In this document: piece after piece, positions 1,061 to 42,736 of the stretch
Numbering within the stretch: position 1 is the stretch's first letter
How the letters are laid out: each line of letters begins with the position of its first letter
Virus genome (UHGV): UHGV-0389216
Strand: one strand, 5' to 3'
DNA: 42,736 bases
Origin: a virus
Translations under genes and position numbers: made by a program
The notes under the pieces: model-generated
What the model saw: the letters and a program-made list of their open reading frames with translations, nothing else
What the model was told of the DNA's origin: nothing
The model's database searches: none

Positions 1061-2122
1061 ATGACACAGAACTGGATGAGACATTTCGAGCTGCAGCTTG
1101 TGGACGGGAACGGTCAGGGAATTGAGCTAAGTGATTTCAAAGTCACCTTTACGATCGACTGGTTCAACATCAGCAGCGCGTCCCGGGTAGGGACTATCAA
1201 AATTTATAACCTCTCGGCAGATACTGTGAACCGAATTACCGGGCAGGAGTTTTCGAAAGTGCGTCTGATTGCGGGTTACGATGGTATCGCGCCGGAGGTG
1301 TCGGCAAGCGATGTCGGGACCGTGCGGGAGGTTGATGCGGCGGACGTGGGCCAGAGTGATGGCCGCAACTACGGACTGATTTTCAGCGGTGAAATTCGCT
1401 ACTCGGTCACAGGAAAAGACAGCCCGGTTGATTCCTACGTCCTGATTCAGGCAGCCGATACAGATCTGGCTTTTGCCACCAGCATAACTTCGCAGACGCT
1501 GGCGGCCGGTTATACGGTCGCAGACGTGAATCGCGCGCTGATGAAAGACTTCGAGGCCAAAGGCGCGACTGAAGGTCTGACGCCTGAAATGCCTGCTACC
1601 GTTTTCCCCCGGGGCCGGGTGCTATTCGGCATGACACGTCATCTTATGGATAACGTGGCCGGACAATGTGGCGCAACATGGCAGTTCGTGGATGGTCAGC
1701 GCCAGATGGTGGCGAATAACGAATATGTTCACGACGCGATTGTGCTCAGCAGTGCCACGGGGCTTATCGGTATGCCACAGCAGACTATCGGCAACGGCGT
1801 AAACGTCCGCGCGCTGATTAACCCGAACATCCGGGTTAACGGGCTCATTCAGCTGGATCAGGCTTCAGTATTCCGCACCGCGCTGTCGAACAACGATATC
1901 GCGATGGCCGGCGGGCAGATCACCGACCAGAACACGGACGGAAATATCACGCTCAGCGGCACCACATCGCAGCCTGCCAGCATCGCAACGGATGGCGTTT
2001 ATATTGTGCGCGGGATTATGTACAGTGGCGATACAAGGGGCCAGGCGTGGTACATGGATATGATGTGCGAAGCGCGTGGCGCGGCGGATCTGTATACGCA
2101 ATCGGCTTTGCAAAGGGGATGA
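1061..2122 (+). CDS. baseplate hub-like tail protein (putative)
   Basis: 353-aa ORF, ATG 1061 with GGAG upstream; size and position upstream of spike/J-like genes. Assignment is positional. Confidence 0.45.
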   Translation: MTQNWMRHFELQLVDGNGQGIELSDFKVTFTIDWFNISSASRVGTIKIYNLSADTVNRITGQEFSKVRLIAGYDGIAPEVSASDVGTVREVDAADVGQSDGRNYGLIFSGEIRYSVTGKDSPVDSYVLIQAADTDLAFATSITSQTLAAGYTVADVNRALMKDFEAKGATEGLTPEMPATVFPRGRVLFGMTRHLMDNVAGQCGATWQFVDGQRQMVANNEYVHDAIVLSSATGLIGMPQQTIGNGVNVRALINPNIRVNGLIQLDQASVFRTALSNNDIAMAGGQITDQNTDGNITLSGTTSQPASIATDGVYIVRGIMYSGDTRGQAWYMDMMCEARGAADLYTQSALQRG

Positions 2123-2125
2123 GCA

Positions 2126-2467
2126 ATGAGGGGTATTATTTTTCTGTTAGCTGTCTTTTCTGCGTGCAGCGCGTGGGCGGATGGCTTCACGGTTAAATGC
2201 GGTGGCTACACTATGGTTGCAAACCAGGGCGAGTTATCGACAATCAACGGTGAAAGAGTTACCTCTCAAAAAATCACCGAACTGGGTACCAATGGTTTGA
2301 AAGTAGACATGGGGCTTATGCCTGCCAAAGACGGTAACAACTACGGCTTTGAATACATTCGTCGCCCTGGTACCGAAACGCGATTCCTGAATGTCCAACT
2401 GCTGCAGAACAGCATGGATGCGCCGAAAATCATCGGTTCCTTTCCATGCAAAAAGATTGTTGATTAA
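2126..2467 (+). CDS. small secreted protein / possible lipoprotein (moron)
   Basis: 113 aa; N-terminal signal peptide MRGIIFLLAVFSACSAW with lipobox-like FSAC; inserted between baseplate genes. Confidence 0.5.
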   Translation: MRGIIFLLAVFSACSAWADGFTVKCGGYTMVANQGELSTINGERVTSQKITELGTNGLKVDMGLMPAKDGNNYGFEYIRRPGTETRFLNVQLLQNSMDAPKIIGSFPCKKIVD

Positions 2468-2520
2468 TCACTCGTAATTATAATGTGATACTTCTACTTT
2501 CACGATAAGGAATTTGTCGC

Positions 2521-2760
2521 ATGTTCGGATTTGATAAATTAATAACTCCAAAAATCATCAACGTTCTGTATGGCATCACAATGTTACTTCTGGTTGTTGC
2601 CGCCATTATAACGTTTGTTAATGGGAAGGCTGCTGGCGCTTTAGTGCTTTTGTTATGTGCTGTATTTTGCCGAATATTCTTTGAGTGCATCATGGTTTCA
2701 TTTAAAAACAATGAGTATCTTCGCCGAATAGCTGAAGCGTTAGAAGCAAACAAGCAGTAA
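2521..2760 (+). CDS. small two-helix membrane protein (moron)
   Basis: 79 aa with two hydrophobic segments (ITMLLLVVAAIITFV; ALVLLLCAVFCRIFF); AT-rich upstream region; followed by terminator. Confidence 0.45.
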   Translation: MFGFDKLITPKIINVLYGITMLLLVVAAIITFVNGKAAGALVLLLCAVFCRIFFECIMVSFKNNEYLRRIAEALEANKQ

Positions 2761-2778
2761 TGAAACTTCAATAATGAA

Positions 2779-2800
2779 CCCGCCACCCGGCGGGTTTTTT
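2779..2800 (+). terminator. rho-independent terminator
   Basis: CCCGCC-ACCC-GGCGGG hairpin followed by TTTTTT. Confidence 0.7.
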
Positions 2801-2819
2801 GCTTTCTGGAGCCTACTAA

Positions 2820-3572
2820 ATGGCAGTATCTGACCAGACCCGCAGCGGCGACCTTGCTGAAACATTCAAATCTGAACGGGAAACAACAAAGAACCAGATC
2901 CGTGTCGCCTTGCCTGGCATTGTTCAGTCATTCGATCCCGACGCGGTGACGGCGGTTGTGCAGCCAGCTATCCGTTCGGTTGAAAAGGATAACGACGGTA
3001 ACCGCATTACCAAAAATTACCCGTTGCTGGTGGATGTGCCAGTGGTATTTCCGCGCGGCGGAGGCTGTACGTTGACTTTTCCGGTTAAAGCCGGGGATGA
3101 GTGTCTTGTCGTTTTTGCCGATCGTTGTATTGATTTCTGGTGGCAGAGCGGTGGGATACAGGAGCCGGTCGATGACAGAATGCATGATTTATCGGATGCG
3201 TTTTGTATTGTCGGTCCCCAGTCGCAGGCGAGGAAGATTAGCGGTATTAATACCAGTGCTACACAGTTGCGTAGTGACGACGGCAGCACCTATTTTGAGC
3301 TTAATCCTGATACCAGGAAAATTAAAATTGTCGCTCCGGGGGGCCTTGATGTGGTTGCCCCTCTGGCTGATTTTTCTGAGAAAGTAACCATTCATGGCCT
3401 GTTAACCTGGATGGGGGGCATGGTGGGGTCTGTTGTTTCTGGTGTAGCTTCAAAAATCACTGGTGCTGTTGAGTTTTTGGGTAGCGTGAAGGCTAACGGC
3501 AAGCCAATCGATGATACGCACACTCATGGCGGTGTTCAGCGCGGTGGAAGCAATACCGATGGGGTAAACTGA
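2820..3572 (+). CDS. baseplate assembly/spike protein (gpV-like, putative)
   Basis: 250-aa ORF, ATG 2820 after CTGGAG; position before small baseplate protein and J-like gene; Gly-rich C-terminus. Confidence 0.5.
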   Translation: MAVSDQTRSGDLAETFKSERETTKNQIRVALPGIVQSFDPDAVTAVVQPAIRSVEKDNDGNRITKNYPLLVDVPVVFPRGGGCTLTFPVKAGDECLVVFADRCIDFWWQSGGIQEPVDDRMHDLSDAFCIVGPQSQARKISGINTSATQLRSDDGSTYFELNPDTRKIKIVAPGGLDVVAPLADFSEKVTIHGLLTWMGGMVGSVVSGVASKITGAVEFLGSVKANGKPIDDTHTHGGVQRGGSNTDGVN

Positions 3573-3925
3573 TGCGATACAGACGTGAAGACGCCGATGG
3601 CGATTACACCTTTGGCAGCGGTGATGACACCTGGCTGATTAACTCACCGGAGGCCGTGGCGCAGGCGGTAAAAACGCGATTCGAATTGTGGTATGGGCAA
3701 TGGTTTCTCGACACCACCGAAGGGACTCCGTGGATCCAGTCCGTGCTCGGTAAGCAGAAGCCGGAAACCTACAACCTGGCGATCCGTAAGCGCATCCTCG
3801 AAACGCAGGGCGTTAAATCAATCCTCTCTTTCAATACGACGGTGGATACCACGACCCGACGTGTCATGTTTTCCGCTGAAATCGACACTCTTTATGGAAT
3901 AACGACTGTTACATCGGAGGCGTAA
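3572..3925 (+). CDS. small baseplate protein (gpW/gp25-like, putative)
   Basis: 117 aa; start overlaps previous stop (TGATG); conserved V-W-J-I type order. Confidence 0.45.
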   Translation: MRYRREDADGDYTFGSGDDTWLINSPEAVAQAVKTRFELWYGQWFLDTTEGTPWIQSVLGKQKPETYNLAIRKRILETQGVKSILSFNTTVDTTTRRVMFSAEIDTLYGITTVTSEA

Positions 3926-5124
3926 TGGCTCTGAACCTTGATTCTCTCGGTTTATCTGCAAAGGTAACCGCGGAGGGGATCAGTGCGCCTGATTATCAGA
4001 CGATACTCAGCACCCTGATTAGCTATTTTCAGCAGATTTATGGCAGTGATGCCTACCTCGAACCGGACAGCAAAGACGGCCAGATGGTGGCTCTGATGGC
4101 GCTGGCGATTCATGATGCCAATAATATGGCGATAACTGTCTACAACTGTTTTTCACCGGCAACCGGCTATGGGGCCGCACTGACCAGTAACGTGAAAATA
4201 AATGGTATTTCACGTAAAGGCGCGACGAATTCTACGGTTGATTTGCTTCTTACAGGAACTGCCGGAACAACCATCATTAATGGCAGCGTGAAAGACAGTA
4301 ATAATGTGATATGGCGTTTGCCTGTTTCAGTGGTGGTCGGCGTGGATGGTACAGTGATGGTGACCGCAACATGTTCCGTCAGTGGTGCAGTGGCGGCGCT
4401 GGCTGGAACAATCACTGAAATTAATACGCCAACCCGTGGCTGGGTTTCGGTAACTAATCCTGCTGCGGCTACTGTTGGCTCTCCGGCAGAAACTGATGCT
4501 GAGTTACGTATCCGCCAGTCGCAAAGTGTTGCGTTGCCATCAATAACCCCATTTGAAGCACTGGATGGTGCTGTTTCTAATGTTGTCGGTGTAACCCGCC
4601 ACAAACTCTATGAAAACGATACTGGTTCGGAGGACGGTAACGGGTTACCGCCACACTCTGTTGCTGTAATTGTGGATGGTGGTGATGTGACGGATATTGC
4701 TCAGGCTATCAGAGGGAATAAAGGCCAGGGGACAGCCACTCACGGTACAACATCCGTTACGGTTCCGGATAAATACGGCAATCCCCATGTAATCAAATTC
4801 TCGCGTTCCAGTGATGTGCCTGTTTATGCCCGGATTAAATTAAAAGTTTTTACGGGTTATACCTCACAGATAGGGCAGCAGATCCAGCAGGCTATTTCCG
4901 ACTATATCAATAGTCTGATGATTGGTGATTCGGTCCTTTTAAGTCGCATTTACTCACCGGCGAATCTTGGCGTGGTGAGTGGCGGGAATGCACGCTATTA
5001 CGATATTCAGGAACTGACGATTGGTAAATCCCCGGGGGCTTTGTCGTCATCAAACATTGATATCAGATACAACGAATCTGCGTCCTGTACCCCGGAAAAT
5101 ATCGTTATAACGGTGGAGTCATGA
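3925..5124 (+). CDS. baseplate J-like protein
   Basis: 399 aa; ATG 3925 after GGAGG, overlaps previous stop; size and order typical of baseplate J. Confidence 0.55.
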   Translation: MALNLDSLGLSAKVTAEGISAPDYQTILSTLISYFQQIYGSDAYLEPDSKDGQMVALMALAIHDANNMAITVYNCFSPATGYGAALTSNVKINGISRKGATNSTVDLLLTGTAGTTIINGSVKDSNNVIWRLPVSVVVGVDGTVMVTATCSVSGAVAALAGTITEINTPTRGWVSVTNPAAATVGSPAETDAELRIRQSQSVALPSITPFEALDGAVSNVVGVTRHKLYENDTGSEDGNGLPPHSVAVIVDGGDVTDIAQAIRGNKGQGTATHGTTSVTVPDKYGNPHVIKFSRSSDVPVYARIKLKVFTGYTSQIGQQIQQAISDYINSLMIGDSVLLSRIYSPANLGVVSGGNARYYDIQELTIGKSPGALSSSNIDIRYNESASCTPENIVITVES

Positions 5125-7539: not shown

Positions 7540-8607
7540 TTATTGAAATTTATCTCGGATGAATTGCTGCGATGGTTTTTCAATGAATATATATGACATA
7601 TAGCTAATTGCCATTAATGTAAGCATGAATAAAATGAATACATTGGAGCTGTAAAAAAGATCGCGTCCATAGCCAATCCTGTCAGCTAAATAAACAGCAA
7701 TGATTTGCAAAGGAAAATGTAAAAGATAAGATGAATAACTGATATCACCCAACCATTCAATTTTCTTCCCAAAGTCGTTTCGCATTGCGCTAATTGATAC
7801 AAGGAAAAATATTATGGAGGTAAATCCAAATAAAATAATTGAGAATATATCTGCTACTTGCAGGATAAAAATAACTCCCCACGAGATTAATAGAAAAACA
7901 CAAGCGAAAATAAAAAATGATTTTGTGCCAATATTTTTTATGAACGCAATCGTAATTTTATAGGTCAGACCACCAATAAAGAAAGAGAATGCGCCGATCA
8001 TTATGGGATTGTTAATTTTGAAAAAGTAGTACGACAATGCAACTATTAAAATTGATATGAATGTTGTTTTTGATGTGAACTTGCATAATATAAAAAATAT
8101 CATGTACATAAGTACTTCAATCGACACGGACCATGTCGGTGCGTTGAAGGACCAACCTCGCTCAAATCCCCATGATTGAATCATCAATAAATTCAGAATG
8201 GCATGGTAAATGTCATTCATAGGATAAACAAAAAAATAATTATAACTTTTAAAGAAAATAATTTGTAATATTACCACGACAGCAAATGTAAATATATAAA
8301 GTGGATATAATCTACTGACACGGTTAACTATAAAAGTTTTTGCTGAGGTTTTATTGCTGTGTATATTGTCAGCGTATAGATAAAAAAATATGAATCCAGA
8401 AATCATAAAAAACAATTCGACAGCATATAAACCGTAATGATAAAAGACGGAAAAAAATTCATAAAAAGGTTGGCGGTTTATGATTATGTCAGATGCAGCA
8501 TTCTTTTTCATAAAAAAATGTTGCCAATGCCATAACACAACTGAAAGTGCGGCAAATCCTCTCAGAACATCTAGGGTATATATTCTTTTCCCAAAAACAT
8601 TCGTCAC
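7540..8607 (-). CDS. acyltransferase family 3 membrane protein, O-antigen acetylase-like
   Basis: 355 aa, GTG start. N-terminal LDVLRGFAALSVVLWHWQHFF motif and about 10 hydrophobic helices as in Oac/OafA-type acyltransferases; strongly AT-rich; opposite strand to tail genes. Confidence 0.75.
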   Translation of the reverse strand: MTNVFGKRIYTLDVLRGFAALSVVLWHWQHFFMKKNAASDIIINRQPFYEFFSVFYHYGLYAVELFFMISGFIFFYLYADNIHSNKTSAKTFIVNRVSRLYPLYIFTFAVVVILQIIFFKSYNYFFVYPMNDIYHAILNLLMIQSWGFERGWSFNAPTWSVSIEVLMYMIFFILCKFTSKTTFISILIVALSYYFFKINNPIMIGAFSFFIGGLTYKITIAFIKNIGTKSFFIFACVFLLISWGVIFILQVADIFSIILFGFTSIIFFLVSISAMRNDFGKKIEWLGDISYSSYLLHFPLQIIAVYLADRIGYGRDLFYSSNVFILFMLTLMAISYMSYIFIEKPSQQFIRDKFQ

Positions 8608-8849: not shown

Positions 8850-10260
8850 CGCTGACTCACACCTCATTTCCTGTGCGGGCTTTAAGCTCAAAGAATTATT
8901 CAGGTTTAGCGAGTCACGGTCTTACCTGTCGTTGTCATCACTCTGGCCGCCAGAGCAACCTTTCAGTATTCACCCTTTCATTAAAAGTTAATATTTATCG
9001 GTATCAGCGATTAATATGGTCTGATACTGACATGATTCTTGTCGTATTTACTTCCATGAGCTGCTATCGCCCATACTGTTCGTGCCAGTTTGTTTGCCAT
9101 GGCGACGATTGCCACGCTGGCTGGACGACGTTTTTTCAGTTCGGTTATCCACGGACCAGGTTCTTTGGTCAGTAATGCTGCCGCCCTTGCGCCATGAATA
9201 AACAAGGCTCGCAGATATGTATCACCACGTTTGCTTATCCCCAGCAGGCGGATTTTCCCTCCTGAGCCAGTCTGTTTGGGCACCAGACCAACATAAGCCG
9301 CGAACTCTCGCCCTGATTTAAACGCTGATGCTTCCCCCATGGTGGCCACCGCTGCCGTCGCAATAAGTGGCCCAACGCCGGGAATATCCAGCAACCGCTT
9401 ACAGGTTTCATTCTGTTTCGCCACGCTGGTAAGCTGTTTTTCAATATCCTCTATCAGTGAGTCCAGCTCATTCAGCCGGTTGTACTGGTTTTCCAGCACA
9501 GTAATGAGATACGGTGGCAGTCTCTCTTTCATCCGCTCCAGTGCTTCAGGGAACTCCCGCTCCATTGCTGCCCGACCTTTGTGAATTGTTTCACCAAATT
9601 CCAGGAGCGTGCCGTGCAGGGAGTTAATCTGCATGGTGCGGAACTTCACCAGTTGTCTGCGGGAACGATGCAGAACCAGTACCGACTGCTGTTCTTCTGT
9701 TTTGACAGCGATTTCCTTGCCGGGCTGTTGTACTGCCATCCAGATAGCCCGGGCATCCATAACATCGTTTTTATTACCCATGACGAACGCTTTAACGAAG
9801 CGGGCCTGCAACAACCGGACTTTATGACCCAGCTTTGTCAGTTCACGTGCCCAGTGCTGCGAGCCTCCACAGGCCTCCATACCAATCAGGCAGGGTTCCC
9901 GATTACAGAAGAACATCAGAAAATCCTGACGACGCAACTGCTTATCAATCACTTCACCTGTGTGCTCGTCGATGAAGTGAACCTGAATGACATGTTTTGC
10001 GATATCAACGCCAACCGGTGTATATTTCATTTGTGGAGTCTCCAGTCTGAAGGAGCTTTATGCATCCCGTATTGGGCACTATGATGCCGGAAATCTGCGA
10101 GGCTCCACACCTTCCTGTATTTCCCTTCATCTATCACTGTGCACCTTACTTAATGGGGGGGATGTGTTCATTACATTTCATGTATACCAGATGAAAGTGC
10201 ATGTTCTATGAAACAGGGTTTTGCCTGGAGTTTGAAGGGTTTTAAAGATTATACCTGTTT
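8850..10260 (-). mobile_element. IS110-family insertion sequence (boundaries approximate)
   Basis: Contains a single IS110-type transposase ORF with about 160 bp 3' and about 230 bp 5' non-coding flank. Exact ends not determinable by eye. Confidence 0.5.
9011..10030 (-). CDS. IS110-family transposase (DEDD-type)
   Basis: 339 aa starting MKYTPVGVDIAKHVIQVHFIDEHTGEV with ...GMEACGG...NDVMDARA..., the N-terminal DEDD fold pattern of IS110/IS1111 transposases; C-terminal domain follows. Confidence 0.85.
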   Translation of the reverse strand: MKYTPVGVDIAKHVIQVHFIDEHTGEVIDKQLRRQDFLMFFCNREPCLIGMEACGGSQHWARELTKLGHKVRLLQARFVKAFVMGNKNDVMDARAIWMAVQQPGKEIAVKTEEQQSVLVLHRSRRQLVKFRTMQINSLHGTLLEFGETIHKGRAAMEREFPEALERMKERLPPYLITVLENQYNRLNELDSLIEDIEKQLTSVAKQNETCKRLLDIPGVGPLIATAAVATMGEASAFKSGREFAAYVGLVPKQTGSGGKIRLLGISKRGDTYLRALFIHGARAAALLTKEPGPWITELKKRRPASVAIVAMANKLARTVWAIAAHGSKYDKNHVSIRPY

Positions 10261-23531: not shown

Positions 23532-24155
23532 CTAACGTTTACGGCGGTAAATACGGTGTTCGATCATTACACCTATGATCTGTAAGTTCATATCTGCACT
23601 ACGAAAAATAGGGTAATCAGGATTTAGGGGGATTAATTCAAAGTCGTCGATGCCGATTCCTAATGGACGGTATTTTTTAAATGTAGCTTCGTGACCGTCG
23701 TTTTTGGCGACAACAAACTCCCCTGGTGCAGGACATAGATCAGGATCGATGATAACAATGTCTCCTTCTTTAAACTCTGGTTGCATGCTGTCGCCATCGA
23801 TACGTAATGCGAAGCATGTTTCTGGAATGTCAGAGTCTGCCAAAATATATTCAAATTCCCCTGTCAGATCTGTTATGTCTCTTGCTTCTGTAAGCTCTCC
23901 TGCCTGAACGTAACTTAATATAGGTATGCGTCTGGTACTTATCTCCGCGAGAGGCATAATATTTTTACCGTTCAGTAGCCAGTCTGGGCTACATTTCAAG
24001 GCCTTAGCCAGATCCAGAAGATTGCGTGGCTTTCTGGTTCGTCCACTTTCGATGGATTCTATGGATTGTTGGCTAACCCCTGCAGAATTCGCTACTTCCA
24101 CTTGAGTCATTCCTAATTCCAAACGACGTGCTTTAAAACGGGCTGCGAGAGACAT
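23532..24155 (-). CDS. CI-like repressor (HTH plus S24 LexA-like peptidase domain)
   Basis: ATG 24155 with AGGA upstream; HTH MTQVEVANSAGVSQQSIESIESG; peptidase motif RIDGDSMQPEF; divergent from Cro-like gene. Confidence 0.85.
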   Translation of the reverse strand: MSLAARFKARRLELGMTQVEVANSAGVSQQSIESIESGRTRKPRNLLDLAKALKCSPDWLLNGKNIMPLAEISTRRIPILSYVQAGELTEARDITDLTGEFEYILADSDIPETCFALRIDGDSMQPEFKEGDIVIIDPDLCPAPGEFVVAKNDGHEATFKKYRPLGIGIDDFELIPLNPDYPIFRSADMNLQIIGVMIEHRIYRRKR

Positions 24156-24178
24156 GGGATTAGTCCTTCTGGGTTGTA

Positions 24179-24256
24179 TTAATGTGTATCCCCACATTAA
24201 AAACAATTTTTGTTGTATTTGACAAACCTCGTTTGTTGTTGCTAAATACCACTAAA
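24179..24256. promoter_or_regulatory. operator palindrome plus PR-like promoter of the immunity switch
   Basis: Perfect inverted repeat TTAATGTG-N6-CACATTAA (24179-24200); TTGACA (24219-24224), 18-bp spacer, TAAATA (24243-24248), then Cro start. Confidence 0.5.
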
Positions 24257-26964: not shown

Positions 26965-27387
26965 ATGCGTAATATTCAACAGGTTTTAGAGCGCTGGGGT
27001 GGCTGGGCAGCGAGTGAAGGTGGTAGCGTCTACTTTCCTCCTGTTGCAGCTGGGTTTAAGAATCTGCTACCCGCGACGCACTCTGGAAGGCTGAAATGCA
27101 GTGACAATGACGGTCTTATCATCAACTCCGCTATGAGCTGCCTGAAGAAAAAAGATCCGTATCTGTGCACGCTCCTTGAGTGGCATTACGTCCAGGCCAT
27201 GCCCGTGCGGACGATGGGTGAGAAGCTCGGCGTATCTCACACCCACGTTCTGAAGAGGCTTCAGGCGGCAGAGGGATTTATTGACGGTTGCTTAGCCATG
27301 CTGGATGTGGTGCTCGAAATGGATCAGTCGGTTCAGTCAAAGCCTCAGGCTATCAGGACATTGCGTAGGAGCTGCTCGGCGGCATAA
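26965..27387 (+). CDS. late-gene antiterminator Q-like protein
   Basis: 140 aa starting MRNIQQVLERWGGWAASEGG, similar as I recall to Q-type antiterminator N-termini; upstream of the lysis cassette. Confidence 0.55.
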   Translation: MRNIQQVLERWGGWAASEGGSVYFPPVAAGFKNLLPATHSGRLKCSDNDGLIINSAMSCLKKKDPYLCTLLEWHYVQAMPVRTMGEKLGVSHTHVLKRLQAAEGFIDGCLAMLDVVLEMDQSVQSKPQAIRTLRRSCSAA

Positions 27388-28103: not shown

Positions 28104-28204
28104 GTATTCAGGGCCCACCGAAGGACGGCTCATAACCCAATTCTACGGGCGTATACGCAGGGCCCGCCTTTCAACAACACCCCGTAATGGCGGAGGTGGG
28201 AAGT

Positions 28205-28546
28205 ATGAAAATGCACAATGCTCCTCATTCCTGGCCTGACTTACTGGAACTCTTACAAAGTTGGTGGCGTGGAGATACGCCGTTGGGCGCAGTGGTTATG
28301 TCAATTGTTATGGCTGGTTTGCGCATTGCCTATTTTGGCGGTGGCGGCGGCTGGAAACGAAAAACGCTTGAGATTTTGCTCTGTGGTGCTCTGACGCTGA
28401 CCTTTGCATCCGCTCTTGAGTATGTTGGATGGCCTAAATCGCTTTCTGTTGCCATTGGTGGTGGTGTTGGGCTGATCGGTGTCGATGCTATTCGTGGGGC
28501 TGCAATGCGAGTAATCGGTAACAAGTTTGGTGGCTCTAAGGAGTAA
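28205..28546 (+). CDS. holin (three predicted TM segments, dual-start MKM)
   Basis: GGAGG 9 nt upstream of ATG 28205; Met-Lys-Met dual start; three hydrophobic helices; immediately upstream of endolysin. The ORF-track start at 28187 has no SD. Confidence 0.7.
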   Translation: MKMHNAPHSWPDLLELLQSWWRGDTPLGAVVMSIVMAGLRIAYFGGGGGWKRKTLEILLCGALTLTFASALEYVGWPKSLSVAIGGGVGLIGVDAIRGAAMRVIGNKFGGSKE

Positions 28547-40739: not shown

Positions 40740-40916
40740 CGTTTAACAGCCTGCCGGACGGGCTGTCCTACCTTCTCAATCCGGTTGACGCCGGGTTAAT
40801 TCCTTATACAGCACTTAAAGATGGCTCTGTCGATTTGTACGATATTGCTCTTTTGAATGACCATCTGGCGGTAAAAGCGGATAACCAGCGGCGCATTGAG
40901 AAATGGAGAGAGGATA

Positions 40917-42736
40917 ATGAACGCTGAAACTATTAAAGATTTCCTCGTCTCGCTTGGCTTCAGTGTGGATGATGCAGGAGCGAAAAAGTTCGGTTCTGTC
41001 CTCGCCGGTACAACTGCAAATGTCATCAAAATGGGGCTGGCCGTTGAAGGAGCCGCGCTGTCCGTGGTGGCCTTCACGGCTAAGATCGCCTCCGGTCTGG
41101 ATAATCTTTACTGGGCGTCACAGCGCACTGGAGCGACAGTCCAGGGAATTCAGTCTATTGGCTATGCGGTTTCGCAGGTTGGCGGCAGCGTGGACGCTGC
41201 GCGATCTTCTCTGGAAAGCCTCTCCCGGTTTATTCGTAATAATCCCGGTGCAGAGGGATTTCTGAATCGCCTGGGGGTACAGACACGGGATGCCAGCGGT
41301 AACATGCGTGACATGGCCGCTATTTTTACAGGTGTAGGCCAGAAGCTCAGCGGCATGCCGTATTACCGGGCTAACCAGTATGCGCAGATGCTGGGCATTG
41401 ACGAAAATACCCTTATGGCGATGCGTCGGGGTGTGGGTGGTTTCTCCGGGCAGTACAGCGCAATGGCGAAAGCTATCGGCTTCAATGCTGACGAGGCGGC
41501 CAGAAGCTCCAACAAATTTATGACCTCCCTGCGTGAGTTTAGCGCGATGGCAGGCATGGCCCGTGACAAAATCGGCTCTAATCTTGCGGGTGGGCTTGCG
41601 GGTTCGCTGGACACCCTGCGCCGCCATATCCTGGACAACTTCCCTCGTATCGAGCTGACCCTGACGAAAGCCATAAAAGGCATTCTGGCGCTCGGGGATA
41701 TTATCGGGCGGCTGTTCTTCAGACTGATTGAAGGAACATCAGGTCTCATCACCTGGTGGCAATCGCTGGATAAGCAAACGCGGCAGTTGATCTCGCTGTT
41801 TGGCGCACTGACGATTGCGCTGCGCATTCTGAACAGTACGTTCTGGATGTCGCCGATTGGCCTTATTACTGCGCTGGCGGCGGGGATTGCCCTTCTGTGG
41901 GAGGACTATCAGACCTGGAAGGAAGGCGGCGACAGCCTGATTGACTGGGGCAAGTGGAAACCGGAGGTCGATGCCGCGTTGAAGATGGTTCGTGACCTTA
42001 AAACAACCGTTAACGACCTGGCGAAAGCGCTGGCGAAACTGCTCAATATTGACCCCAAATCATGGTCCCTGAAGTGGGATTTCAGCAACTTCATCGACCA
42101 GATGGGCGAATTCAGCAAAATGCTGAACATGATCGCCGACCTGCTCAACGCTATCAAAGATGGCCGCTGGGCTGATGCCGTCAGCATCAGCAAACAGATA
42201 CTTAATCAGGGCAGTGAAAATCCGTCAGCGATGCCGATGGTTACAGACAGCGCTAACAGTACTGCCGACTGGATTAAAGAGCACTGGGGATTCGATCCTC
42301 GCAGCGTGGGCCGGACGGTACGCGGCTGGTTTGGTGATGATGAGCCGGAACAATATGCACAGGCTACGAAACGAGGAGAACGGAATAACAATCCGGGAAA
42401 CCTTAATTTTGCTGGTCAGGCAGGGGCTTCTCTTGAACGCCCGGGCGGGCGATTTGCCAGATTTGAAACTGCTTTTGATGGATTACGGGCTCTTGCTCGT
42501 CAGTTAATGCTGTACGCCGGACGGGGAATAAACAGTGTGGAGAAAATTATCTCTACCTGGGCACCTGCGTCTGATAATAACAACACAACTGCGTATATCA
42601 GGGCTGTATCGCAACGACTGGGAGTGGATCCCCGGGCTGCCCTGAATATGAGCGATCCGCAAACCATGTCAGCATTGATGAGCAGCATTATCCAGCATGA
42701 AAATGGAAGAAATATCTATTCCCGAGAGCTGATTAA
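40917..42736 (+). CDS. tail tape measure protein (partial, continues beyond window)
   Basis: ATG 40917 preceded by GGAGAGAGGA; 606 codons open to window end; Ala/Gly-rich helical N-terminus with hydrophobic segments. Not in ORF track because no stop in window. Confidence 0.7.
   Translation, partial: MNAETIKDFLVSLGFSVDDAGAKKFGSVLAGTTANVIKMGLAVEGAALSVVAFTAKIASGLDNLYWASQRTGATVQGIQSIGYAVSQVGGSVDAARSSLESLSRFIRNNPGAEGFLNRLGVQTRDASGNMRDMAAIFTGVGQKLSGMPYYRANQYAQMLGIDENTLMAMRRGVGGFSGQYSAMAKAIGFNADEAARSSNKFMTSLREFSAMAGMARDKIGSNLAGGLAGSLDTLRRHILDNFPRIELTLTKAIKGILALGDIIGRLFFRLIEGTSGLITWWQSLDKQTRQLISLFGALTIALRILNSTFWMSPIGLITALAAGIALLWEDYQTWKEGGDSLIDWGKWKPEVDAALKMVRDLKTTVNDLAKALAKLLNIDPKSWSLKWDFSNFIDQMGEFSKMLNMIADLLNAIKDGRWADAVSISKQILNQGSENPSAMPMVTDSANSTADWIKEHWGFDPRSVGRTVRGWFGDDEPEQYAQATKRGERNNNPGNLNFAGQAGASLERPGGRFARFETAFDGLRALARQLMLYAGRGINSVEKIISTWAPASDNNNTTAYIRAVSQRLGVDPRAALNMSDPQTMSALMSSIIQHENGRNIYSRELI

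What the first reader, a model, noticed from the sequence alone, without database searches (positions are those of the whole stretch)
2126..2800. Two-gene moron (secreted/lipoprotein plus small membrane protein) inserted in the baseplate operon with its own terminator
Between the hub-like gene and the gpV-like gene, where tail operons are normally contiguous, there is a signal-peptide protein (lipobox-like FSAC) and a 79-aa two-helix membrane protein. The second gene has an AT-rich leader and is followed by a strong intrinsic terminator (2779-2800). Envelope-targeted morons in late operons are often superinfection-exclusion or host-modifying factors expressed from the prophage.
Basis: partly seen in the sequence, partly recalled or inferred. 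Interest (0 to 1): 0.55.

Follow-up and report, generated by a model that had tools for sequence, protein, structure and literature searches.

The report
Accessory envelope genes in tail operon
Between two baseplate genes of a temperate E. coli phage sit two separate accessory genes, an old exported periplasmic protein and a swappable small inner-membrane protein, in a cargo hotspot closed by a terminator that belongs to the phage backbone; this is an ordinary kind of phage 'moron' site, and neither protein has a known function.

Summary
The sequence features are real: ORF1 (2126-2467, signal peptide), ORF2 (2521-2760, two-helix membrane protein, Pfam DUF4282), an AT-rich cassette (36% GC) and a hairpin plus T-run terminator (2776-2800). 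The reading as one two-gene moron with its own terminator is only partly right.

- **Two units.** Homology with relatives breaks at the end of ORF1 and resumes at the terminator, so only ORF2 and its leader (about 2468-2775) is the swapped cassette. At least 12 other cargos fill that position in 79 close relatives.
- **ORF1 is older.** It is the usual first occupant of the slot (67/79 close loci; 43/51 occupied slots in a one-per-species sample). It is kept down to 27% identity. It is a Sec/SPase I periplasmic beta-barrel, not a lipoprotein.
- **The terminator is backbone.** It is also present in 13 of 17 short cargo-free hub-spike junctions. The phage encodes a Q antiterminator.
- **ORF2 looks self-contained.** It has a strong candidate promoter (TTGTTG-16-TATAAT), and DUF4282 genes recur at other late-operon sites in unrelated prophages.

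Function is inferred only. Prophage-expressed envelope factors, probably superinfection exclusion, is the most likely role. This is a new member of a known kind, of moderate interest.

The parts
1061..2122 (+). Baseplate hub gene (context). This is the left border of the cargo slot.
   Evidence: Pfam E217_GP41 at 4e-05 and NCBIfam orf58_phage_fam at 3.7e-47. It is conserved in all relatives.
1998..2026 (+). Candidate internal sigma-70 promoter inside the hub 3' end (TTTATA-17-TACAGT), about 100 nt upstream of ORF1. Inferred, not shown.
   Evidence: PWM score 10.2, the 99.99th percentile of the window. An element at the same position occurs in all relatives checked. The synonymous sites Val313 GTT (6/6) and Thr322 ACT (5/5) are fully conserved, against a background of 8.4%. 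The score is at least 9 in 25/51 occupied slots and 0/17 empty slots. This comparison is confounded by phylogeny.
2126..2467 (+). ORF1: exported 113-aa protein with a mature part of about 95 aa. It belongs to phrog_3443, a narrow uncharacterised family.
   Evidence: The AlphaFold2 model is an 8-stranded up-and-down beta-barrel at pLDDT 72. C25 and C108 are invariant. dN/dS is 0.09-0.13.
2126..2179 (+). Signal peptide of ORF1 (residues 1-18, predicted cleavage after A-W-A).
   Evidence: Sequence inspection and hydropathy. A18 is invariant and A16 at least 90% conserved, while the h-region sequence varies. Cys14 is not conserved.
2457..2484 (+). Candidate promoter of ORF2: -35 TTGTTG (2457-2462), 16-bp spacer, -10 TATAAT (2479-2484). 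Inferred.
   Evidence: PWM score 11.5, the 99.996th percentile of the + strand, and the only top-25 site apart from 1998-2026 that lies inside the structural late region. In 6 of 8 independent genomic contexts, DUF4282 genes have a site scoring at least 9.2 whose -10 ends 30-37 nt before the ATG.
2468..2775 (+). The exchanged cassette (ORF2 with its leader and 3' spacer), 36% GC.
   Evidence: blastn breakpoints against six relatives. GC values. The cassette is present in 83 E. coli genomes, whereas the last 45 nt of the query (terminator and RBS) are present in 225.
2507..2511 (+). Shine-Dalgarno sequence AAGGA of ORF2, 9 nt before the ATG.
   Evidence: Read from the sequence.
2521..2760 (+). 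ORF2: 79-aa DUF4282 protein, a two-helix membrane hairpin with a conserved N-terminal motif and a conserved C-terminal amphipathic extension.
   Evidence: Pfam PF14110 at 1.2e-10 and phrog_12129. Alignment shows invariant F4, I8, T9, P10, R51, E55, F61, K62, E65, Y66, L67, R69 and I70. AlphaFold2 pLDDT is 85.8. dN/dS is 0.18.
2776..2805 (+). Intrinsic terminator (hairpin 2776-2797, T-run 2795-2800). It is a backbone feature of the hub-spike junction.
   Evidence: The stem is conserved and the loop varies among cassette types. It is present in 50/51 occupied slots and 13/17 short empty slots.
2806..2819 (+). RBS region of the spike gene (GGAG at 2808-2811). It is conserved together with the terminator.
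2820..3572 (+). Spike gene (gpV/gp138 type, Apex motif). This is the right border of the slot.
   Evidence: Pfam PF18352 at 1.7e-44 and Apex at 9.9e-05.
26965..27387 (+). Q-type late antiterminator. It explains how late transcription can pass the terminator at 2776-2800.
   Evidence: Pfam Phage_antitermQ at 7.9e-42. SEN34-type phages have a lambdoid genome organisation and myovirus morphology (PMC5261728).

Best explanation
The interval holds two independent accessory modules. They sit in a recombination hotspot between the hub and spike genes of a SEN34-like (Brunovirus-type) temperate myovirus with lambdoid regulation.

**Module 1 (ORF1).** This encodes a Sec/SPase I-exported periplasmic beta-barrel of about 95 aa, probably closed by a disulfide between C25 and C108. 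It is the ancient and usual first occupant of the slot and is tightly coupled to the hub gene. It exists as divergent allelic types shuffled between near-identical tail modules.

**Module 2 (ORF2).** This is a self-contained promoter-SD-gene cassette for a 79-aa DUF4282 inner-membrane helical hairpin. It is one of many alternative cargos at the second position.

**The terminator.** Both modules are closed by an intrinsic terminator that belongs to the backbone hub-spike junction.

**Proposed mechanism (inferred).**
- In the lysogen, the ORF2 promoter fires, and possibly also a promoter inside the hub 3' end that would serve ORF1.
- Those transcripts stop at the backbone terminator, so the spike and baseplate genes stay silent.
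- After induction, Q-modified RNA polymerase reads through the terminator.

**Proposed function (inferred, least certain).** The two envelope proteins protect the lysogen against incoming phages after adsorption. ORF1 would act in the periplasm and ORF2 in the inner membrane, in the manner of HK97 gp15, T4 Imm or P1 Sim.
For: **Shown: the swapped unit is ORF2 only**
- Homology breakpoints lie at about 2454-2467 and about 2774-2777.
- Census of 79 close slots: ORF1 family in 67, DUF4282 in 12, and at least 12 other second-position cargos. These include a YafO toxin-antitoxin pair and a DUF2335 membrane protein.

**Shown: ORF1 is old and usually first**
- One-per-species census: 22/73 slots are empty, and 43/51 occupied slots carry an ORF1-family gene, nearly always first.
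- ORF1 homologues sit right after the hub even at 27% identity.
- When ORF1 is replaced, the substitute is again an exported protein: a 154-aa secreted protein or an LTSC lipoprotein.
- Mature ORF1 has a median identity of 77% to the window copy. Hub and spike in the same loci are 96.6% and 98%.

**Shown: the terminator is backbone**
- It is shared by slots with different cargo and by empty slots.
- The phage encodes a Q antiterminator.

**Shown or suggested: ORF2 is a mobile, self-contained gene**
- DUF4282 genes recur right after the tape-measure gene in Klebsiella siphophage-type prophages and in Edwardsiella GF-2.
- They also recur after the lysis genes in a Pantoea prophage.
- They occupy the same hub-spike slot in Erwinia, Pectobacterium and Hafnia.
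- Each copy has a downstream terminator, and most have a promoter-like site 30-37 nt upstream.
- The candidate ORF2 promoter is in the 99.996th percentile of the window.
- Composition is deviant: 36% GC and GC3 of 0.39.

**Precedent**
Small inner-membrane moron proteins in tail operons can block DNA entry, as HK97 gp15 does (PMC3594210).
Against: - No expression data exist. The promoters are consensus predictions from an approximate PWM that I built.
- No sequence or profile similarity links either protein to any known exclusion or defence family (Pfam, PHROGs, PADLOC, NCBIfam).
- ORF1 has no terminator or clear promoter of its own in the window, where the hub-internal -10 is the weaker TACAGT. 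It may be made only late in the lytic cycle.
- The ORF1 + DUF4282 pair also occurs in Erwinia and Pectobacterium at about 67% identity. DUF4282 is therefore an old resident of the slot, not a recent insertion.
- Part of the low GC of ORF2 reflects its Ile/Leu/Phe/Lys-rich composition.
- The association of the hub-internal promoter motif with occupied slots is confounded by phylogeny.
Confidence: 0.6

Rival explanations
1. One reading: one recently inserted two-gene moron, a lipoprotein plus a membrane protein, that brought its own terminator.
For: Both genes are absent from relatives with contiguous hub and spike. The region has lower GC than its flanks. A terminator follows ORF2.
Against: Breakpoints separate ORF1 from ORF2. 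ORF1 and DUF4282 occur independently of each other. The terminator is present in cargo-free junctions and downstream of unrelated cargo. The lipobox Cys is not conserved, whereas the A-x-A site is.
Confidence: 0.07
2. ORF1 is not a lysogenic-conversion gene. It is a late-expressed periplasmic helper of the phage's own lytic cycle, for example modulating lysis, protecting the infected cell from secondary adsorption or lysis from without, or conditioning the envelope. It would be transcribed only with the Q-dependent late operon.
For: It starts 3 nt after the hub stop, with no intervening terminator or strong promoter in the window. It keeps its position down to 27% identity. It is under strong purifying selection.
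Against: It is dispensable. 22/73 relatives lack any gene there, and Hafnia has only DUF4282. It is replaced by unrelated exported proteins in 12/79 close loci. Its alleles are far more divergent than the flanking structural genes, and one slot holds three paralogues. That pattern is typical of conflict genes. A conserved promoter-like element lies 100 nt upstream.
Confidence: 0.22
3. ORF2 is a membrane-damaging effector, such as a class II holin or antiholin-like protein, an abortive-infection effector or a type I toxin-like peptide. It would not be a passive injection block.
For: It has two transmembrane helices with both ends predicted cytoplasmic and a charged C-terminal tail, which is class II holin-like architecture. 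R51 and E55 are invariant inside the second helix. In Pantoea the homologue lies just downstream of the lysis cassette.
Against: No holin or defence profile matches at E <= 0.1. The phage has its own holin at 28187-28546. The gene appears to have a constitutive-type promoter and no partner or antitoxin gene. It also occurs as a lone chromosomal gene in Franconibacter.
Confidence: 0.1
4. ORF1 is a PliC/MliC-like periplasmic inhibitor of the peptidoglycan hydrolase carried at the C-terminus of the tape-measure protein. It would be analogous to T4 Spackle inhibiting the gp5 lysozyme.
Against: The fold matches are weak and generic; avidins and outer-membrane barrels score as high or higher. There is no Pfam or PDB sequence match. 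ORF1 types do not co-vary with the lytic domain type: 42 loci are endolysin-like and 17 are SLT, and the SLT set includes ORF1 alleles 95% and 98% identical to the window copy. The alternative first-position genes occur with the same tape-measure type.
Confidence: 0.05

Closest known systems
HK97 gp15 moron (superinfection-exclusion inner-membrane protein in the tail operon)
   Same: Both are small inner-membrane proteins encoded inside the late tail operon of a temperate phage with Q-type late regulation. Both show deviant base composition, a promoter-gene-terminator layout and homologues in bacterial chromosomes. DUF4282 genes in other prophages even sit next to the tape-measure gene (PMC3594210).
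   Different: There is no sequence relationship. gp15 belongs to the YebO family, and ORF2 matches only DUF4282, plus weakly YbhQ. ORF2 has two helices. The terminator it uses is resident in the backbone. Its function is untested.
T4 Imm and P22 SieA (inner-membrane injection blocks); P1 Sim and T4 Spackle (periplasmic exclusion proteins)
   Same: They share cell compartments and size class with ORF2 (inner membrane) and ORF1 (periplasm, signal-peptide processed).
   Different: No Pfam, PHROG or PADLOC match to any of them. Spackle is reported to be helical (my recollection), whereas ORF1 is an all-beta barrel. No exclusion phenotype is known for either ORF.
Lambda lom/bor, phi80/N15 cor and T5 llp (envelope proteins encoded beside tail genes)
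   Same: They are exported proteins encoded within or at the end of tail gene clusters, dispensable for virion assembly.
   Different: Those are outer-membrane barrels or lipoproteins. ORF1 lacks a conserved lipobox. At about 95 aa it is too small for a known outer-membrane barrel. No profile match was found.
Cargo or defence hotspots of temperate phages (for example P2-like and P4-like hotspots; Pseudomonas phage morons such as Tab)
   Same: A fixed position between conserved genes carries many alternative, mostly uncharacterised low-GC genes. These include a toxin-antitoxin pair and membrane proteins (PMC10884400).
   Different: The position (hub-spike junction of an E217/Pam3-type baseplate) has a constant first gene for an exported protein and a resident terminator. 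PADLOC (2023) recognises almost none of the cargo; the one match is a weak PycTM hit at 9e-4.
Pfam DUF4282 (PF14110)
   Same: ORF2 scores above the gathering threshold over the whole domain.
   Different: The family has no known function. No paper in the searchable library mentions it.

Membership tests
Moron (Juhala/Hendrix definition as given in PMC3594210) | Extra DNA compared with related phages | tested here: met
   22/73 relatives have hub and spike 0-86 bp apart. The ORF2 cassette is replaced by at least 12 other cargos in close relatives.
Moron (Juhala/Hendrix definition as given in PMC3594210) | Base composition different from neighbouring genes | tested here: met
   The cassette is 36% GC with GC3 of 0.39, against 51-56% GC and GC3 of 0.51-0.65 in the flanks. 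ORF1 is intermediate at 47%.
Moron (Juhala/Hendrix definition as given in PMC3594210) | Own promoter | tested here: inconclusive
   TTGTTG-16-TATAAT at 2457-2484 is in the 99.996th percentile by PWM. Comparable sites lie 30-37 nt upstream of DUF4282 genes in 6/8 contexts. The tool's stricter scan did not list it. No transcript data exist.
Moron (Juhala/Hendrix definition as given in PMC3594210) | Own terminator | tested here: not met
   A good terminator follows ORF2, but it belongs to the backbone. It is shared by slots with other cargo and by 13/17 short empty junctions. Functionally the transcription unit is still closed.
Moron (Juhala/Hendrix definition as given in PMC3594210) | Expressed from the repressed prophage | not testable with these tools
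   This needs lysogen RNA-seq or 5' RACE.
Pfam DUF4282 (PF14110), for ORF2 | HMM score above the gathering cut-off | tested here: met
   42.2 bits against a cut-off of 27, E 1.2e-10, covering profile positions 2-85 of 86.
Bacterial lipoprotein (SPase II substrate), for ORF1 | Lipobox [LVI][ASTVI][GAS]C at the end of the signal peptide, conserved in homologues | tested here: not met
   FSAC has Phe at position -3. Cys14 is absent from most of 30 homologues, while A16-x-A18 is conserved. Some distant family members are true lipoproteins with an extra N-terminal domain.
Sec/SPase I secreted protein, for ORF1 | Positive n-region, hydrophobic h-region and an A-x-A cleavage motif, conserved in position but not in sequence | tested here: met
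   Sequence inspection, hydropathy and alignment. No dedicated predictor such as SignalP was available.
Known superinfection-exclusion families (YebO/gp15, Imm_superinfect, SieB, Cor, Llp, Bor, Lom) | Profile match to the family model | tested here: not met
   Pfam scans at E <= 0.1 returned only DUF4282 and YbhQ for ORF2 and nothing for ORF1. Both PHROGs are 'unknown function'. PADLOC returned nothing.
PliC/MliC periplasmic lysozyme inhibitors, for ORF1 | Sequence or fold membership, and pairing with a cognate muramidase | tested here: not met
Virion structural protein | Present in all members of the tail module, cytoplasmic, detected in particles | tested here: not met
   Both genes are absent from many relatives. 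Both products are envelope-targeted. Virion proteomics is not available.

The most novel reading that the evidence does not exclude
The hub-spike junction of this phage lineage would be a conserved 'expression dock'. A promoter embedded in the hub coding sequence and a resident terminator would bracket a slot whose first gene is almost always an exported protein. The ORF1 family would be a new class of periplasmic, fast-diversifying exclusion proteins aimed at the membrane-puncturing apparatus of related phages. DUF4282 would be a new inner-membrane injection-blocking family that moves between tail operons of unrelated phages.
Probability: 0.25. Interest if true: 0.6.

Novelty: new member of a known kind. 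Interest (0 to 1): 0.38.

Why it matters
Morons and cargo hotspots in temperate phages are a main source of undiscovered anti-phage and host-modifying functions.

This site is common. It occurs in 353 of 5,426 complete E. coli genomes, including EPEC and STEC strains. It is precisely bounded and carries dozens of uncharacterised cargos.

Two of those cargos can be tested directly:
- a narrow family of periplasmic barrels tied to the baseplate genes;
- DUF4282, a Pfam family with no function assigned and no literature.

The resident terminator and the possible hub-internal promoter would also show how a late operon tolerates and expresses cargo. If the proteins turn out to be exclusion factors, they would add two families to a short list of injection-stage defences. 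If not, the finding remains an ordinary accessory locus.

Tried and rejected
1. **Lipoprotein reading of ORF1.** Rejected. Cys14 is not conserved and A-x-A is.
2. **PliC-like inhibitor paired with the tape-measure lytic domain.** Tested by cross-tabulating ORF1 type against endolysin-like or SLT tape-measure C-termini. There is no association.
4. **Profile search of 1.84 billion representatives with the ORF1 alignment.** Only 40 hits. The multi-kb repetitive proteins among them are chance matches to a Gly/Asp/Tyr-rich repeat. No link to a named family emerged. The PDB sequence search was empty.
5. **The second secreted protein (C13, strain P4) as a paralogue of ORF1.** hhalign probability is 9.5%, so not supported.
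6. **PADLOC and Pfam on the alternative cargos.** Only a weak PycTM hit (9e-4) for one membrane protein.
7. **Literature.** No paper mentions DUF4282 or PF14110. The SEN34 paper has no virion proteomics.
8. **Rfam scan of 1900-3100.** Only a spurious sub-threshold snoRNA match.
9. **The longer antisense ORF 2478-2786 (102 aa).** My first greedy ORF caller preferred it. I rejected it because the + strand frame has the Pfam match, cross-genus conservation and dN/dS of 0.18.
10. **Tape-measure protein lytic domain.** Pfam and NCBIfam do not detect one in the window's tape-measure protein. Only the PDB sequence search does.
Full report
**1. What is in the sequence**

The window looks like a complete temperate phage genome, circularly permuted.
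- It has a CI-like repressor at 23532-24206 (-), a Q antiterminator at 26965-27387 and a holin at 28187-28546.
- It also has head and tail genes, and a tape-measure gene that runs across the window ends.

The finding lies in the baseplate cluster. The gene order is as follows:

| Gene | Coordinates |
|---|---|
| Dit-like | 169-756 |
| Plug | 756-1058 |
| Hub | 1061-2122 |
| ORF1 | 2126-2467 |
| ORF2 | 2521-2760 |
| Spike | 2820-3572 |
| gpW-like | 3572-3925 |
| gpJ | 3925-5124 |

- **ORF1** has a typical signal peptide.
- **ORF2** matches Pfam DUF4282 above threshold. It is predicted to be a helical hairpin at pLDDT 85.8.
- **Composition.** GC falls to 36% over 2468-2775.
- **Terminator.** A 9-bp G+C-rich hairpin with a T-run lies at 2776-2800. 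It folds at -18.6 kcal/mol, z = -3.6.

The one exception is the 'lipobox'.

**2. Relatives and breakpoints**

The module is that of Salmonella phage SEN34 (Brunovirus), the E. coli phages vB_EcoM-689R2, 606R2 and 611R5, and Yersinia phage YP3. It is present in 353 of 5,426 complete E. coli genomes.

All these relatives keep a homologue of ORF1 (phrog_3443) directly after the hub, but they carry a different second gene. In SEN34 the ORF1 homologue is annotated too short. The full-length frame with a signal peptide starts upstream.

Pairwise blastn places the end of homology at window position about 2454-2467 and its resumption at about 2774-2777. The exchanged unit is therefore ORF2 with its leader. 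It is not ORF1 and it is not the terminator.

In E. coli genomes the DUF4282 cassette occurs in 83 genomes. The 45 nt comprising the terminator and spike RBS occur in 225 genomes, downstream of other cargo such as a YafO toxin or a DUF2335 protein.

**3. Census of the slot**

*Close relatives.* I analysed 79 hub-to-spike intervals: the window, six annotated relatives and 72 IMG/VR contigs.

| First-position gene | Loci (of 79) |
|---|---|
| ORF1 family | 67 |
| 154-aa secreted protein | 5-6 |
| Lipoprotein with an LTSC lipobox | 7 |

The first-position gene is thus always for an exported protein. The second position holds at least 12 unrelated alternatives:
- DUF4282 in 12 loci
- a two-gene set in about 30
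- a YafO-type toxin-antitoxin pair in 5
- DUF2335 in 4
- several other membrane or cytoplasmic proteins

*One genome per species across Enterobacterales*.

| Slot state | Loci |
|---|---|
| Empty (0-86 bp) | 22 of 73 |
| Occupied | 51 of 73 |
| Occupied, with an ORF1-family gene (almost always first) | 43 of 51 |
| Occupied, with DUF4282 | 1 of 51 |

Additional look-ups show the ORF1 + DUF4282 pair in Erwinia and Pectobacterium prophages, with DUF4282 at 67-68% identity. They show DUF4282 alone in the slot in Hafnia. ORF1 and ORF2 therefore have separate histories, and both are dispensable for the tail.

**4. The terminator is a backbone feature**

The hairpin stem, the T-run and the spike RBS are conserved behind 12 of 14 cassette types, while the loop varies.

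A terminator of the same design precedes the spike gene in 50/51 occupied slots. It also precedes the spike in 13 of the 17 cargo-free junctions of 36-86 bp. Cargo is therefore inserted upstream of a resident terminator.

The phage encodes a Q antiterminator. SEN34-type phages are lambdoid in organisation (PMC5261728). This explains how late transcription can pass the terminator. That step is inferred from established knowledge of Q-dependent late operons.

**5. ORF2 as a transcription unit**

I scored sigma-70 promoters with an approximate position weight matrix built from textbook hexamer frequencies (my own knowledge).
- TTGTTG-16-TATAAT at 2457-2484 falls in the 99.996th percentile of the + strand.
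- Only two of the 25 best sites lie inside the structural late region: this one and the site at 1998-2026.
- The tool's stricter scan missed the site at 2457-2484 because its -35 has only 3 of 6 matches.

DUF4282 genes recur in eight independent contexts:
- this slot in four genera
- directly after the tape-measure gene in Klebsiella prophages and in Edwardsiella phage GF-2
- after the lysis genes in Pantoea
- a non-phage chromosomal site in Franconibacter

Six of the eight have a site scoring at least 9.2 whose -10 ends 30-37 nt before the ATG. Each phage-borne copy checked is followed by an intrinsic terminator. Several other second-position cargos also begin with strong promoter-like sites.

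ORF2 thus fits the moron definition in PMC3594210, except that its terminator is borrowed from the backbone. Expression in the lysogen is untested.

**6. ORF1**

- **Export.** An alignment of 31 homologues shows a variable signal peptide, an invariant A18 and a nearly invariant A16. Cys14 is not conserved. C25 and C108 are invariant. ORF1 is therefore a secreted periplasmic protein, probably disulfide-bonded.
- **Family size.** There are 396 clusters at 90% identity, all enterobacterial. Only 40 representatives appear among 1.84 billion. No name is attached to any of them.
- **Variants.** Distant members keep the pattern of signal peptide, CGP(F/Y) and a C-terminal Cys. Some are lipoproteins with an added N-terminal domain. 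One slot holds three paralogues.
- **Diversity.** Among loci whose hub and spike are at least 90% identical to the window, 20 of 50 have a mature ORF1 below 75% identity. Medians are 77% for ORF1 against 96.6% and 98% for hub and spike. dN/dS is 0.09-0.13. The pattern is of distinct, functional allelic types shuffled by recombination.
- **Inhibitor idea tested.** I tested whether ORF1 inhibits the lytic domain at the tape-measure C-terminus. That domain is endolysin-like in the window and SLT in relatives. There is no co-variation.

**7. A possible promoter for ORF1**

A promoter-like element (TTTATA-17-TACAGT in the window, usually TATACT or TACACT elsewhere) lies about 100 nt before the hub stop in all relatives examined.
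- Its critical T residues fall on synonymous positions. Val313 is GTT in 6/6 and Thr322 is ACT in 5/5, against a background of 8.4%.
- It scores at least 9 in 25/51 occupied slots and in 0/17 empty slots, although the hub amino-acid motif is similar.

This is suggestive, but it is confounded by phylogeny and by the Thr/Ser/Asn difference at that codon.

**8. Function**

Nothing links either protein to a characterised family, and there is no literature on DUF4282.

Three lines of argument point to prophage-encoded protection at the envelope:
- *Compartment:* one protein is periplasmic and the other sits in the inner membrane.
- *Genomic habit:* cargo sites next to tape-measure, hub and spike genes, allelic diversity, and replacement by other exported proteins, a toxin-antitoxin pair and membrane proteins.
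- *Precedent:* HK97 gp15 (PMC3594210) and other morons (PMC10884400).

The most likely role is therefore a block of genome entry. My confidence is about 0.85 in the architecture and about 0.35 in this function.

The main rival for ORF1 is a late, lytic-cycle periplasmic role. For ORF2 it is a membrane-damaging effector.

**9. Verdict**

This is a new member of a known kind: accessory or moron cargo in a late-operon hotspot. Three refinements are worth recording:
- there are two independent modules rather than one;
- the terminator is resident in the backbone;
- the first gene, for an exported protein, is nearly constant.

Interest is moderate.

Noticed in passing
window 2776-2819; L134, L136, L151, L154, L175 and other empty slots: An intrinsic terminator sits between the hub and spike genes even in relatives with no cargo (13 of the 17 junctions of 36-86 bp). 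It is a conserved intra-operon terminator of unknown purpose in the cargo-free phages.
   Followed up: partly
window 1998-2026 (inside the hub gene): A promoter-like element with conserved synonymous sites lies about 100 nt upstream of the slot. It scores at least 9 in 25/51 occupied slots and in 0/17 empty slots.
   Followed up: partly
window ~42380-42736 + 1-169 (C-terminal ~175 residues of the tape-measure protein, whose frame opens at 40875 and runs across the window ends): The tape-measure C-terminus is homologous to an endolysin (PDB 7q47, E 1e-13; 9vvp Gp29, 1.8e-20). Close relatives (SEN34, YP3 and many IMG/VR contigs) instead carry an SLT lytic transglycosylase domain. The lytic domain has been swapped within one phage lineage.
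   Followed up: partly
L003 (Salmonella phage SEN34) 3632-3973: SEN34_20 is annotated as 77 aa starting at an internal Met. The full 113-aa frame with a signal peptide starts about 108 nt upstream at a TTG or GTG codon.
   Followed up: yes
L004 1291-1348 and L006 1520-1561: A 42-58-nt remnant of the 3' end of ORF1 (window 2413-2470) survives just downstream of the 154-aa secreted-protein gene that replaces ORF1. It is a scar of the replacement event.
   Followed up: partly
L156 (Pseudescherichia vulneris), slot between hub and spike: Three ORF1-family paralogues, one of them truncated, lie in a single slot.
   Followed up: partly
L114 and L181, first gene after the hub: These are 288-296-aa lipoproteins (AGC or TGC lipobox) with an ORF1-family domain at the C-terminus and an unknown N-terminal domain of about 190 aa.
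   Followed up: no
window 7540-8607 (-) and 9011-10030 (-): An Acyl_transf_3 acyltransferase (a candidate surface-polysaccharide-modifying conversion gene) and an IS110-family transposase lie downstream of the tail-fibre genes. This region also holds most of the strongest promoter-like sites of the window.
   Followed up: no
window 2478-2786 (-): A 102-aa antisense ORF is longer than the real DUF4282 gene it overlaps. It misled a longest-ORF gene call and has no supporting evidence.
   Followed up: yes
L040, L058 and L061, second gene of the slot (184 aa, several TM helices): This alternative cargo protein has a weak match to the Pycsar TM effector model (PADLOC PycTM, E 9e-4).
   Followed up: no
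L015 and about 30 other loci, second and third genes of the slot: The commonest alternative cargo is a two-gene set of 243-266 aa plus 123-142 aa, with no Pfam or PADLOC match. It is preceded by a near-consensus promoter-like site (TTGACT-18-TAAAAT).
   Followed up: no
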